This document shows, piece by piece, positions 18,564 to 20,664 of a stretch of DNA of 32,000 bases. Under the pieces are notes generated by a model, which worked only from the letters and a program-made list of their open reading frames with translations, was not told the DNA's origin and searched no databases. Location of the stretch: positions 30,001-62,000 of the forward strand of contig JBMFJD010000001.1 in NCBI GenBank assembly GCA_049974095.1, in the 5' to 3' direction. Within the stretch, counting starts at the first letter, position 1, and every line of letters begins with the position of its first letter. The translations under genes and the position numbers were made by a program. Source of the DNA: Nanopusillaceae archaeon (GTDB lineage Archaea; Nanobdellota; Nanobdellia; Nanobdellales; Nanobdellaceae).

Positions 18564-19604
18564 ATGGAAAGCGTAAGGGAAAATATAAGGAGGATACTGA
18601 TTGAGGAATATTTAAGAAAGAATAAAGATCCATTTGAAAGTATAGTTGGACAGGAGGATACTAAAAGACAAATTATTGCTTCTTTGATTTCTGGAAGAAA
18701 TATATTAATTATCGGACCACCTGGAACTGGAAAAACTACTATTGCAAAAAATATAGCATCTTTATTACCTACCATAGATTTTCCAGAAGAGATTCCATTG
18801 TGGGCATATCCAGAATTTCCTTTTGTTTCTGATGAATATAGAAAAAAGTGGGAAACTGGTCCTTTTATAAAATTAGAAGGAGAAAAAAGATTTATTAGAA
18901 TACAAGGATCTTATGATTTATCTATAGAAGATCTAATTGGAGATATAGATCCTTCAAAAGCATTAAAATATGGTATACATTCTTTAGAATCATTTATACC
19001 TGGAAAAATATTTAGAGCCCAACATGGAGTATTATTCTTTGATGAATTAAATAGAGCTCCTCCAAAAGTACAGAATACATTATTAGAATTATTAGAAGAA
19101 AAGAAAATAACAATTGGATCATATGAATTTCAAATACCTTTAGATATAATTTTTGTTGCCACAATGAATCCAGAAAGTTATTATGGAACAGAAAAATTAT
19201 CCGATGTATTATTAGATAGATTTGATGCAATTTATTTGAATTATCCAAAAGATATTGAAGAAGAAAAGAAAATAATATTTAAATATGGAAAAAACCTTAA
19301 TATAAATTTCCCAGAAAAATTAATTGATTTGTTCTTGGAATATATACAAGAATTAAGGAAAGATGATAGATTGGAAAAGAAACCCTCTGTTAGATCTAGT
19401 ATTGGAATATATGAAAAAGCACAAGCATTAGCAATAATTGATAAAAAAGAAAATGTTGAATTACAGCATATATTTGAAGCATTACTATCAATTTTACCAA
19501 ATAGAATAAGATTAAAGCCATCATATAGAATGGAAATGAAAGAGGAAGATTTTATTAAAAATACATGGAATTCTTTTATAATAGGAAAAGGCTTTCGGAG
19601 TTGA
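18564..19604 (+). CDS. AAA+ ATPase, ChlI / MoxR-like
   Basis: FESIVGQEDTKRQII...NILIIGPPGTGKTTIAKNIASLLP (Walker A), GVLFFDELNRAPPKVQNTLLELLEE (Walker B / sensor region), FVATMNPE, LLDRFD. Confidence 0.85.
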   Translation: MESVRENIRRILIEEYLRKNKDPFESIVGQEDTKRQIIASLISGRNILIIGPPGTGKTTIAKNIASLLPTIDFPEEIPLWAYPEFPFVSDEYRKKWETGPFIKLEGEKRFIRIQGSYDLSIEDLIGDIDPSKALKYGIHSLESFIPGKIFRAQHGVLFFDELNRAPPKVQNTLLELLEEKKITIGSYEFQIPLDIIFVATMNPESYYGTEKLSDVLLDRFDAIYLNYPKDIEEEKKIIFKYGKNLNINFPEKLIDLFLEYIQELRKDDRLEKKPSVRSSIGIYEKAQALAIIDKKENVELQHIFEALLSILPNRIRLKPSYRMEMKEEDFIKNTWNSFIIGKGFRS

Positions 19605-20664
19605 GGTAGAAAATTATATTAAAAGACAAGGAAGTACTTTTAAGGAAGAAAAAAGAAAAAGTGAAAATGCAATATATGAACTTGTAGATAATTTAATAAG
19701 GGAAGGATATCCAATATTTGATATTGATAAATATATAGAAAATAGAGAAAAATATTCAAAATTATTATCAAAATTAACAGATTTTGATGAAAAAAGGATA
19801 AAAGAAGATAAAGATGAAAGATTTAAAAAAGAATTAAAAAAAGCATTAAATAAAGTAAAAGAAATATTAATAAAAGAAGGATATTTAGATGAGAATGAAG
19901 AAATAAAAGAAAAAAGTTTAAGATTATATTCTAAAGAAATAATAGGAAATATTGAAAGAGATATATCTGGAATATTTGAATATGGAAAATATAAGTCAAA
20001 TATTATTGGAAATGATGAAGAATTTTATAAGAAATATTTTAGTATTGGAGATAAATATTCAAAAATAGATCCAAAAGAAACAATAAAGAAATACATAAAA
20101 TTTGGAGAGATAAGATTTATTATAGAAGAAAAAAGAGAAAATAAAGGTGGAAGATATATTGTATTACTGGATGTATCTGGAAGTATGATTGGAGAAAAAA
20201 TATTTGAAGCAAAAAAGGCATTATTAATATTAACTGAAAAAATATTGGAAGATCATAATTTATTAGATATTATTTTATTCAATGATAAGATATTAAAAGA
20301 ATATAAAAATGTAAAAGGATTTGAAGATATAATTGATATATTAAAAATAATACCAAATGGAAGTACAGATATTTCTATGGTTTTAAACTATATTTTAAAT
20401 AATGTTGAAGAAAATTCACATATAATATTAATAACTGATGCTTTACCAACTTCTGGAGAAGAACCTGTTCAAAGAACATTGGAAGCTGCAAGAAAATTGG
20501 GAAATATTTGTTATATTTCAATAATAGGAATACAATTAAATAAAGAAGGAGAAGAAATTGCAAAATATATTGTAAAATATGGAAATGGTAGATTATTTAT
20601 TGTTAAAAATTTAGAAGATTTGAAAAAAGTTATATTGATAGAATATGAATTGTCTAAACAATAG
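19594..20664 (+). CDS. vWA (MIDAS) domain protein. The frame is open from 19585 with no ATG/GTG/TTG until 20185. It is probably expressed as a +1 frameshift fusion to the upstream AAA+ ORF, giving a ChlD-like architecture
   Basis: The MIDAS DxSxS motif (YIVLLDVSGSM) straddles the first ATG, so translation must begin upstream. Downstream vWA T and D positions (NGSTDIS, ILITDALPTSGE) are present. 200 stop-free codons precede the first ATG. Confidence 0.65.
   Translation, partial: FGVEVENYIKRQGSTFKEEKRKSENAIYELVDNLIREGYPIFDIDKYIENREKYSKLLSKLTDFDEKRIKEDKDERFKKELKKALNKVKEILIKEGYLDENEEIKEKSLRLYSKEIIGNIERDISGIFEYGKYKSNIIGNDEEFYKKYFSIGDKYSKIDPKETIKKYIKFGEIRFIIEEKRENKGGRYIVLLDVSGSMIGEKIFEAKKALLILTEKILEDHNLLDIILFNDKILKEYKNVKGFEDIIDILKIIPNGSTDISMVLNYILNNVEENSHIILITDALPTSGEEPVQRTLEAARKLGNICYISIIGIQLNKEGEEIAKYIVKYGNGRLFIVKNLEDLKKVILIEYELSKQ

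What the first reader, a model, noticed from the sequence alone, without database searches (positions are those of the whole stretch)
19582..20187. AAA+ (ChlI/MoxR-like) and vWA ORFs joined by a 200-codon start-less open frame: candidate programmed +1 frameshift at UUU-CGG
Seen directly: the AAA+ ORF ends ...ATA GGA AAA GGC TTT CGG AGT TGA (stop 19602-19604). In the +1 frame there is a TAG at 19582-19584. After that the frame is open for 200 codons (19585-20184), and I checked every codon and found no ATG, GTG or TTG. The first ATG (20185) is the M of the vWA MIDAS motif itself (VLLDVSGSM), so a product starting there would lack the first beta-strand and the metal-binding Asp. In DNA this AT-rich, stop triplets are frequent, so a 200-codon stop-free stretch is vanishingly unlikely unless it is translated. 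Stop-codon readthrough cannot link the ORFs because the frames differ. A +1 slip of peptidyl-tRNA-Phe from UUU (19593-19595) to UUC (19594-19596) re-pairs perfectly. The 0-frame A-site codon at that point is CGG, whereas Arg appears otherwise to be encoded almost only by AGA/AGG in the ORFs I read. This is the classic 'hungry codon' +1 set-up (cf. Ty1 CUU-AGG-C, prfB CUU-UGA-C). The conceptual product (~699 aa: AAA+ module, acidic/basic linker, C-terminal vWA) has the domain order of Mg-chelatase subunit ChlD/BchD. The alternatives are a sequencing indel, a recent pseudogene, or non-canonical initiation.
Basis: partly seen in the sequence, partly recalled or inferred. Interest (0 to 1): 0.78.

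Follow-up and report, generated by a model that had tools for sequence, protein, structure and literature searches.

The report
Start-less vWA gene likely read by +1 frameshift
In a small symbiotic archaeon (Nanobdellota), the gene for the second half of a two-part AAA+/vWA protein has lost its start codon. It probably still gets made because ribosomes slip forward one base at a rare CGG codon at the end of the first gene and fuse the two proteins, as related organisms do through a single continuous gene. This would be a rare, possibly the first, example of programmed +1 frameshifting in an archaeal cell gene, but no experiment has yet tested it.

Summary
In this window from a Nanobdellota (DPANN) genome (764 kb, 25% GC), a MoxR/ChlI-like AAA+ gene (18564-19604) ends …GKGF-R-S-stop, with the rare CGG codon 2 codons before the stop. 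The +1 frame starts with TAG at 19582 and then runs open for 200 codons to the first ATG, which sits inside the vWA metal-binding (MIDAS) motif. A public contig agrees with TAG and TTT. I compared 16 loci from about 15 Nanobdellota genomes:
- Relatives have a TTG start where this genome has TAG, or lost it on their own. This start site changes more often than any other comparable site.
- The vWA frame stays intact in all 16 loci.
- CGG, the rarest codon here (7 in about 200,000 codons; no tRNA-Arg(CCG) found), sits at the junction in all 16.
- Every genome without the TTG start has a UUU-CGG or CUU-CGG site where a +1 slip could occur. The two genomes whose UUC-CGG site cannot slip keep the TTG start. 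One loose contig, L021, has neither.
- Other lineages encode the same AAA+ and vWA parts as one continuous 703-724-aa protein.

Best explanation (about 0.5): a +1 ribosomal frameshift at UUU-CGG, with the ribosome stalling on the hard-to-read CGG, makes a roughly 699-aa fused protein, like the known −1 frameshifts in Mg-chelatase genes. Main rival (about 0.3): the start loss is recent and this vWA gene is decaying. There is no direct test yet.

The parts
18564..19604 (+). MoxR/ChlI-like AAA+ ATPase ORF (bpMoxR domain), 346 aa, P0001; 0-frame product ends IIGKGFRS*
   Evidence: (PF20030 bpMoxR 40.8 bits over its cutoff of 27; Mg_chelatase; AAA_5)
19579..19584 (+). +1-frame stops TAA-TAG. The TAG (19582-584) sits where relatives have the TTG start of the vWA gene (single T->A at 19583, a synonymous third position of an AAA+ Ile codon)
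19593..19598 (+). Candidate +1 shift site: P-site UUU (19593-595; re-pairs to UUC 19594-596) and hungry A-site CGG (19596-598)
   Evidence: CGG 7/~200k codons, no tRNA-Arg(CCG), CGG conserved at this position in 16/16 loci, invariant C at 19596 unlike every other third position
19602..19604 (+). 0-frame TGA stop of the AAA+ ORF, 2 codons after CGG
19585..20664 (+). +1-frame ORF (vWA frame), 359 codons. N-terminal ~200 residues form a linker/N-domain conserved across Nanobdellota; C-terminal vWA (CoxE-like) domain
   Evidence: VWA_CoxE 31.4 over cutoff 26.4; VWA 27 over 23.8; dN/dS 0.19 N-term, 0.095 core
20170..20184 (+). MIDAS motif D-V-S-G-S of the vWA domain, upstream of the first ATG
   Evidence: translation
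20185..20187 (+). First ATG in the +1 frame (M of DVSGSM); a protein started here would lack the MIDAS Asp/Ser/Ser
18564..20664 (+). Conceptual +1-frameshift product (0-frame 18564-19595, then +1 frame 19597-20664), 699 aa: AAA+ plus linker plus vWA, colinear with natural fused homologs (P0123 703 aa: 69% identity over the AAA+ part, 42% over the vWA part)

Best explanation
This is a conserved overlapping two-ORF gene pair in Nanobdellota. The first ORF encodes a MoxR/ChlI-like AAA+ ATPase (bpMoxR); the second, in the +1 frame, encodes a CoxE/ViaA-like vWA protein. Other lineages make both parts as one continuous ~700-aa protein.

In this genome the vWA frame has no start codon. I propose that it is expressed by programmed +1 ribosomal frameshifting at the end of the AAA+ ORF:
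- Peptidyl-tRNA-Phe sits on UUU (19593-595) while the ribosome waits at the rarely decoded CGG (19596-598).
- The CGG is read only by wobble, by tRNA-Arg(UCG); no CCG tRNA was found.
- The tRNA-Phe re-pairs on the overlapping UUC, and translation continues in the +1 frame (GGA GUU …).

The result would be a ~699-aa AAA+-linker-vWA fusion, with the same architecture as ChlD/BchD and the natural fused homologs. Ribosomes that do not shift terminate two codons later and release the 346-aa AAA+ ATPase alone. So one gene would give a fixed ratio of ATPase and ATPase-vWA fusion, as dnaX gives tau and gamma.

What is shown: the sequence layout, the rarity and conservation of CGG, and the repeated loss of the alternative TTG start while the vWA ORF is kept. 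What is inferred: that the shift happens at all, and its efficiency. The most likely job of the MoxR+vWA pair, as for CoxD/CoxE, RavA/ViaA and NorQ/NorD, is an ATP-driven chaperone that inserts a metal or assembles a client complex. The client in these symbionts is unknown.
For: - The layout is confirmed, and an independent contig supports the TAG and TTT with no indel.
- CGG is the rarest codon: 7/~200k codons, 0.11% of Arg codons, and the only CGG at a gene end. No tRNA-Arg(CCG) was found.
- Across 16 orthologous loci from ~15 genomes (YN1, Nanobdella, Nanopusillus spp., Nanobsidianus, N. acidilobi, metagenome contigs), CGG sits at the same junction in all 16.
- The C of CGG is invariant in all 12 aligned genomes. 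None of the 685 other third codon positions is invariant C. Among conserved Arg columns elsewhere, 0/18 use CGN.
- The TTG start of the +1 ORF changes at its middle base (an AAA+ Ile third position) about 5 times on the 12-taxon tree. That is more often than any other Ile third position (maximum 3) and in the top ~1.6% of all third positions. It is lost even within one species (Nanobsidianus L007 vs L009). Yet the vWA frame stays open and conserved in every genome.
- Every genome that lacks the TTG start (this one, L003, L007, L012, L013, L019, L020) has a +1-competent P-site: UUU-CGG, or CUU-CGG (Ty1/prfB-like) in L019. The two genomes whose site cannot slip (UUC-CGG: YN1 L001 and L018) both keep the TTG.
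- The +1-frame N-terminal motifs (FGVE, G(E/N/D)SFK/NFP, IFDID) are conserved even upstream of the first start codon in start-less genomes.
- Continuous AAA+-vWA fusions of this family exist: P0123 703 aa, in two independent assemblies; P0124-P0126; several Woesearchaeota. The conceptual frameshift product aligns with them along its whole length.
- There is a precedent: Mg-chelatase 'fs-genes' joined by conserved −1 frameshifting, including in Methanocaldococcus/Methanococcus, reaching 10-63% efficiency in reporters, with fused homologs elsewhere (PMC3711429). UUU-Ynn is a known +1-prone site in bacteria, e.g. YopN-TyeA (PMC5009743).
Against: - No frameshift product has been observed. In N. 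acidilobi, a TAG genome, proteomics detected the AAA+ protein (Nps_03295, rank 157) but not the vWA protein (PMC4935971 Suppl. Data 1). This is weak, because the AAA+ itself was near the detection limit.
- Programmed +1 frameshifting in a cellular archaeal gene has not been shown experimentally. The 2021 review lists only one archaeal −1 case, fucA1.
- The TAG here is recent: sister population X2 has TTG. The open frame and its conservation may just be inherited from a translated ancestor.
- CGG would also follow from protein-level selection for Arg in the 0 frame plus Phe in the +1 frame. Only in YN1 and L018 (where AGG would be silent in both frames) and in L021 is the CGG not forced that way.
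- No stimulatory RNA structure downstream (z = −0.05). No clear SD-like element.
- L021 lacks both a TTG start and a +1-competent P-site, yet keeps the vWA frame.
- In most other start-less genomes, downstream starts 11-45 codons in could give a slightly shorter vWA protein without any frameshift.
Confidence: 0.5

Rival explanations
1. Incipient pseudogene. A recent T→A mutation at 19583 destroyed the TTG start of the vWA gene, which relatives such as YN1 and the X2 population keep, so this genome no longer makes a functional vWA protein. The intact open frame and conserved sequence are simply inherited; decay has not yet had time to show.
For: - The X2 relative has TTG at this position, so the TAG is recent.
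- The first canonical start in this genome is inside the MIDAS motif.
- The TTG start is hypervariable, i.e. its loss is tolerated.
- The vWA protein was not detected in N. acidilobi proteomics.
- DPANN genomes are reductive.
Against: - The same start loss recurs independently in at least 6 lineages. In each, the vWA ORF stays intact and its N-terminal motifs stay conserved.
- Neither the AAA+ nor the vWA frame shows any other decay.
- The AAA+ partner stays intact, which would be odd if the system were losing function.
- No excess of derived amino-acid changes on this genome's branch in the vWA N-terminal region.
Confidence: 0.3
2. Non-canonical initiation. The vWA part starts at a near-cognate codon close to the old start, such as AUU at codon 12 of the +1 frame (where Nanobsidianus L007 has UUG), or is reached by reinitiation after AAA+ termination. 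This gives a separate, slightly shorter vWA protein with its MIDAS intact.
For: - Other start-less relatives have canonical starts 11-45 codons downstream, so a short N-terminal loss seems to be tolerated.
- This genome has ATT at the position of L007's TTG.
Against: - Archaea initiate almost only at AUG/GUG/UUG (own knowledge; not tested here).
- The conserved residues 1-11 upstream of AUU12 would remain unexplained.
- It does not explain why CGG is kept at the junction.
Confidence: 0.12
3. Sequencing or assembly artefact: a single-base error makes a continuous ORF look split.
For: - The site holds a homopolymer, though a short one (TTT).
- The window comes from a 48-contig MAG.
Against: - An independent Logan contig at depth ~25 agrees with the TAG and the TTT, with no indel.
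- The same two-frame layout, with the same TTT-CGG or TTC-CGG, is present in 15 other loci, including the complete genomes of Nanobdella, N. acidilobi and YN1.
- A 1-nt fix would not remove the TAG in the +1 frame.
Confidence: 0.03

Closest known systems
Mg-chelatase 'fs-genes' joined by conserved −1 programmed frameshifting (Antonov et al. 2013, NAR, PMC3711429): Pseudomonas, Burkholderia, Delftia, Herpetosiphon, Methanocaldococcus, Methanococcus
   Same: - An AAA+ 'magnesium chelatase' ORF (~1 kb) plus an adjacent overlapping ORF, joined by a shift site under purifying selection.
- Continuous fused homologs exist in other taxa.
- One of the few frameshift cases in archaea.
   Different: - Theirs is a −1 shift at A_AAA_AAA runs (efficiency 10-63% in E. 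coli reporters); this one would be +1 at UUU-CGG, with no A-run heptamer.
- Lineage (Nanobdellota vs Methanococcales/Proteobacteria).
- I could not confirm that their AAA+ is the same bpMoxR subfamily.
Hungry-codon +1 frameshifting: E. coli prfB (CUU-UGA-C), yeast Ty1 (CUU-AGG-C), bacterial UUU-Ynn sites (YopN-TyeA)
   Same: - P-site tRNA re-pairs +1 (here UUU to UUC, or CUU to UUC in L019).
- A slow A-site codon (here the rare CGG) drives the shift.
- L019's CUU-CGG-C mirrors Ty1's CUU-AGG-C.
   Different: - No SD-like stimulator (prfB has one).
- The shift would fuse two domains rather than make a release factor or a transposon protein.
- In an archaeon.
Sulfolobus solfataricus fucA1 α-L-fucosidase (−1 PRF; PMC1616953, reviewed in PMC8211752)
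   Same: - An archaeal gene split into two ORFs that one frameshift can join.
- Some strains or relatives carry the full-length continuous gene.
   Different: - −1 at a heptamer with a stem-loop, vs +1 at UUU-CGG with no structure.
- Enzyme family.
Mg chelatase ChlI/ChlD (BchI/BchD) and putative cobaltochelatase fusion (TIGR02442)
   Same: - The AAA+ part is ChlI-like (Mg_chelatase Pfam; best PDB matches are ChlI chains 8osf, 6l8d, 1g8p).
- The conceptual fusion has ChlD's domain order: AAA+ module, linker, C-terminal vWA.
   Different: - Full-length scores are far below NCBIfam cutoffs (TIGR02030: 58 vs 467; TIGR02031: 42 vs 499).
- The AAA+ keeps an intact Walker A, whereas ChlD's module is degenerate.
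- There is no porphyrin or cobalamin pathway context; the client is unknown.
MoxR-vWA chaperone pairs (CoxD/CoxE, RavA/ViaA, NorQ/NorD; Pfam bpMoxR 'MoxR-vWA-β-propeller' systems)
   Same: - MoxR-type AAA+ (PF20030 passes its cutoff) plus a CoxE-like vWA partner (PF05762 passes), encoded adjacently.
   Different: - No β-propeller gene nearby.
- The genes sit in a conserved neighbourhood: ParA, DPH2-like, DUF131, HAD hydrolase, then ribosomal proteins L16, L30, S5, L37e.
- The two parts are split across frames.

Membership tests
Programmed +1 ribosomal frameshift site | Shift-prone P-site codon that can re-pair in the +1 frame, conserved among orthologs | tested here: met
   UUU-CGG in 13/16 loci, CUU-CGG in 1. 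The two UUC-CGG loci, which cannot slip, keep an alternative TTG start.
Programmed +1 ribosomal frameshift site | Stimulator: a slow A-site codon, SD-like element or structure | tested here: met
   CGG is the rarest codon, no tRNA-Arg(CCG) was found, and CGG is conserved at the junction in 16/16 loci. No downstream structure. No clear SD-like element.
Programmed +1 ribosomal frameshift site | Trans-frame ORF conserved and lacking (or not needing) its own start | tested here: met
   The +1 ORF is intact in all 16 loci. Its TTG start is lost about 5-6 times. This window has no start before the MIDAS.
Programmed +1 ribosomal frameshift site | Frameshift product shown experimentally | not testable with these tools
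   No reporter assay, ribosome profiling or peptide data could be run. N. acidilobi proteomics detected the AAA+ but not the vWA protein.
Mg-chelatase −1 fs-gene cluster (Antonov 2013) | −1 shift at an A_AAA_AAA poly-A heptamer | tested here: not met
   No A-run heptamer at the junction. The partner ORF is in the +1 frame, not −1.
BchI/ChlI Mg-chelatase subunit (TIGR02030) | Whole-protein score above the curated cutoff | tested here: not met
   57.9 bits vs 466.95.
BchD/ChlD (TIGR02031), as a test for the fused form | Whole-protein score above the curated cutoff | tested here: not met
   P0001 scores 42.2 and the natural fusion P0123 scores 64.2, both vs a cutoff of 499.55.
MoxR AAA+ of MoxR-vWA systems (Pfam PF20030 bpMoxR) | Pfam gathering threshold passed | tested here: met
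   40.8 bits vs 27.
CoxE-like vWA partner (PF05762) | Pfam gathering threshold passed | tested here: met
   31.4 bits vs 26.4; VWA PF00092 27.0 vs 23.8.
RavA stimulator ViaA (NCBIfam PRK10997) | Whole-protein score above the cutoff | tested here: not met
   29.4 vs 500.

The most novel reading that the evidence does not exclude
Nanobdellota use a conserved programmed +1 ribosomal frameshift, driven by the rare CGG codon as a 'hungry' A-site codon, to make a fixed ratio of a free MoxR/ChlI-like AAA+ ATPase and an AAA+-vWA fusion from one gene. Some lineages, including this genome, have lost the alternative TTG start and depend entirely on the shift. This would be the first demonstrated +1 programmed frameshifting in a cellular archaeal gene, and the first programmed frameshifting reported in DPANN.
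Probability: 0.4. Interest if true: 0.75.

Novelty: new variant of a known kind. Interest (0 to 1): 0.55.

Why it matters
It would matter on three counts:
- Programmed frameshifting in archaeal cellular genes is almost undocumented: one −1 case (fucA1), plus a predicted −1 in Methanococcales Mg-chelatase. A conserved +1 hungry-codon site across Nanobdellota would extend recoding to the DPANN symbionts.
- It would give a simple molecular way to make two functionally distinct products in a fixed ratio from one gene, in a heavily reduced genome: a free ChlI-like ATPase and a ChlD-like AAA+-vWA fusion.
- The repeated independent loss of the alternative TTG start, with the frameshift-competent site kept, is a natural experiment that makes the question directly testable in the cultured relatives Nanobdella aerobiophila and Nanopusillus acidilobi.

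If instead the gene is an incipient pseudogene, the case still shows how easily overlapping-gene starts are lost in these genomes.

Tried and rejected
- Downstream frameshift stimulator: a fold of 19596-19700 gave z = −0.05, so no stimulatory stem-loop.
- Transcriptional slippage: rejected. The homopolymers at the site (TTT, AAAA) are far too short.
- −1 frameshift route: rejected. The vWA part is in the +1 frame.
- Assembly error: rejected, on the X1 contig and six complete or independent genomes with the same layout.
- Second copy of the vWA or AAA+ in the genome that could substitute: none; only unrelated generic AAA+ matches (tblastn).
- Direct proteomic evidence: checked N. acidilobi (PMC4935971). 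The AAA+ was detected but the vWA protein was not, so no junction peptides could be checked. The Microcaldota co-culture proteomics (PMC11329633) does not cover these organisms.
- DNA-level homology of the junction between the natural fusion P0123 and the split genes: inconclusive. A shared TTTCGGA 7-mer sits in a different frame, and MAFFT misaligned the region, so no claim of a reversion by a 1-nt change is made.
- The 'ChlD/BchD' identity: rejected. NCBIfam scores are far below cutoffs.
- Checking the Methanocaldococcus Mg-chelatase fs-gene directly: the genome search could not target that genus.
- Association test between shift-competence and keeping the TTG start: small numbers (2/2 shift-incompetent genomes keep TTG; 6/13 shift-competent do), so it is suggestive only, not significant.
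Full report
1. What is in the window.
- The window is contig C1 (30001-62000) of a 764-kb, 48-contig genome with 24.9% GC.
- The AAA+ protein's closest relatives are Nanoarchaeota/Nanobdellota: YN1 at 92% identity, Nanobdella aerobiophila at 77%, Nanopusillus at about 68-70%. The organism is therefore a DPANN ectosymbiont, probably from a hot spring (runs X1, X2).
- The region has a gene order conserved across the relatives:
  - a ParA/MinD-like ATPase (16653-17411), a DPH2-like protein (17402-17671), DUF131 (17668-17889) and a HAD hydrolase (17845-18519, −);
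  - the AAA+ ORF (18564-19604) and the vWA frame (19585-20664);
  - ribosomal proteins L16, L30, S5 and L37e on the − strand (20654 onward).

- The AAA+ ORF (P0001, 346 aa) ends …IIGKGFRS* with the stop at 19602-604.
- The +1 frame has TAA-TAG at 19579-584, then no ATG/GTG/TTG until the ATG at 20185, which is the M of …DVSGSM….
- Pfam confirms the two parts:
  - AAA+: bpMoxR (40.8 bits vs gathering 27), Mg_chelatase, AAA_5;
  - +1 frame: VWA_CoxE (31.4 vs 26.4) and VWA (27 vs 23.8).
- CGG is 7 of ~200k codons in long ORFs (Arg: AGA 82%, AGG 16%). The junction CGG is the only one at a gene end.
- ARAGORN finds tRNA-Arg GCG, UCU, CCU and UCG but no CCG.
- An independent Logan contig at depth ~25 matches the window through the site, with no indel. 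The TAG and TTT are real.

3. Relatives show that the vWA frame is normally a separate gene with a TTG start, but that this start is unstable.
- YN1 (L001, complete genome): the same two frames with no indel. Where this genome has TAG, YN1 has TTG. The vWA gene (358 aa) starts there and overlaps the AAA+ stop by 23 nt. YN1's 0-frame site is UUC-CGG.
- Ten more loci and four from metagenome contigs give 16 loci in all. The +1-frame 'S' codon is:
  - TTG in YN1, five Nanopusillus and L018;
  - TAG in this window, Nanobdella (L003), Nanobsidianus AB-777_F03 (L007), N. acidilobi (L012), L019 and L020;
  - TCG in L013.
- The two Nanobsidianus stetteri genomes differ at this codon (L007 TAG, L009 TTG).
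- On a FastTree tree of 12 genomes, the middle base of this codon, which is a synonymous AAA+ Ile third position, changes 5 times. That is more often than any other Ile third position (maximum 3) and in the top ~1.6% of 685 third positions.
- The vWA frame remains open in every genome. Its N-terminal motifs are conserved even upstream of the first canonical start in the start-less genomes.
- WIN vs YN1: dN/dS is 0.19 in the N-terminal 200 codons and 0.095 in the vWA core. There is no excess of derived amino-acid changes on this genome's branch.
- In this genome alone the first canonical start lies inside the MIDAS (200 codons in). In the other start-less genomes downstream starts lie 11-45 codons in.

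4. The junction holds a conserved frameshift-type signal.
- CGG sits at the same place in all 16 loci.
- Its first base (19596) is a third codon position in the +1 frame. It is invariant C in all 12 aligned genomes, whereas none of the other 685 third positions is invariant C. Conserved Arg columns elsewhere are never CGN (0/18).
- P-site codon:
  - UUU in 13 loci (re-pairs with tRNA-Phe(GAA) on UUC after a +1 slip);
  - CUU in L019, i.e. CUU-CGG-C, the architecture of Ty1 CUU-AGG-C;
  - UUC in YN1 and L018, which cannot re-pair usefully in +1. Both of these keep the TTG start;
  - AGA in L021, which has neither a start nor a competent site and may be decaying or mis-assembled.
- Caveat: CGG is also forced when both the 0-frame Arg and the +1-frame Phe are conserved. 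It is not forced in YN1 and L018 (AGG would be silent in both frames) or in L021, and it persists there too.
- No downstream structure.

5. The fused product is a real protein architecture.
- Searching for longer relatives found continuous 703-724-aa AAA+-vWA proteins. P0123 is encoded as one ORF in two independent assemblies, and P0124 is also continuous.
- The conceptual +1-frameshift product of this window (699 aa) aligns with these fused proteins along its whole length: 69% identity over the AAA+ part and 42% over the vWA part to P0123.
- On an AAA+ tree, the split clade sits next to fused P0123 and split P0005/P0009. Fused and split forms are interleaved, so fusion and splitting have happened more than once, or splitting happened once with a later reversion.

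6. Precedent and evidence against.
- Antonov et al. 2013 (PMC3711429) described Mg-chelatase fs-genes: two ~1-kb ORFs joined by a conserved −1 frameshift at A_AAA_AAA runs, in bacteria and Methanocaldococcus/Methanococcus. Efficiency was 10-63% in reporters, and fused homologs exist elsewhere.
- Atkins et al. 2016 (PMC5009743) note that UUU-Ynn is a +1-prone site, as in YopN-TyeA.
- The only confirmed archaeal cellular frameshift is −1 (fucA1; PMC8211752).
- Against: in N. acidilobi, a start-less genome, proteomics detected the AAA+ (rank 157) but not the vWA protein.
- Against: this genome's TAG is recent, since relative X2 has TTG. A first-stage pseudogene therefore remains a serious rival.

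7. Verdict.
- Observation confirmed.
- Best explanation (0.5): +1 hungry-codon frameshifting at UUU-CGG, giving a ChlD-like AAA+-vWA fusion beside the free AAA+.
- Rivals: recent start loss and decay (0.3); near-cognate initiation (0.12); artefact (0.03).
- This would be a new variant of a known kind (conserved frameshifting joining Mg-chelatase-like ORFs) and a possibly first case of +1 programmed frameshifting in an archaeal cellular gene.
- Decisive tests: an archaeal reporter assay with CGG→AGG and UUU→UUC mutants, and junction-peptide proteomics in Nanobdella or Nanopusillus co-cultures.

Noticed in passing
L007 vs L009 (Candidatus Nanobsidianus stetteri AB-777_F03 vs Nst1), codon at locus 1498: Two genomes of one species differ at the vWA start: TAG vs TTG. 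The start-loss polymorphism exists within a species.
   Followed up: partly
L021 (Logan SRR29446203 contig), 2510-2535: This split locus has neither a TTG start nor a +1-competent P-site (AGA-CGG-AGT-TGA). Its vWA ORF is called from a start 77 codons downstream (280 aa), yet it keeps CGG and conserved N-terminal motifs. It may be decaying, mis-assembled, or use another route.
   Followed up: partly
window 19583 and 19592 (run X2, 2018 hot-spring metagenome): A ~93%-identical relative population carries T at 19583 (intact TTG start) and A at 19592 (GGC→GGA), so this genome's TAG is a recent change.
   Followed up: yes
PMC4935971 Supplementary Data 1 (Nps_03295/Nps_03300): N. acidilobi proteomics detected the AAA+ protein at low level (rank 157) but not the vWA partner. 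The adjacent ribosomal proteins L16, L30 and S5 were abundant.
   Followed up: yes
(P0123 JBMYBG010000021; P0124 CAZNIQ010000006; Woesearchaeota P0138 etc.): Continuous AAA+-vWA fusions of 684-758 aa exist in other Nanobdellota and Woesearchaeota, in a different gene neighbourhood (tRNA synthetase/MFS, or tRNA endonuclease/S2).
   Followed up: partly
window 16653-22449: Conserved gene order across Nanobdellota: ParA/MinD ATPase, DPH2-like, DUF131, HAD hydrolase (−), AAA+, vWA, then rpL16, L30, S5, L37e (−).
   Followed up: no
window 27326-27400 (−) and 30977-31063 (+): tRNA-Glu(CTC) and tRNA-Leu(CAA) genes (ARAGORN on C1).
   Followed up: no
genome G000: 764 kb in 48 contigs, 24.9% GC, 41 tRNAs found; tRNA-Arg(CCG) and several others missing. 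The MAG may be incomplete, which matters for the hungry-codon argument.
   Followed up: partly
window 16858-17040 (−), 17502-17696 (−), 18533-18775 (−), 19012-19248 (−), 20375-20563 (−), 20986-21186 (+): Short antisense ORFs inside or beside the real genes; probably chance ORFs in AT-rich DNA.
   Followed up: no
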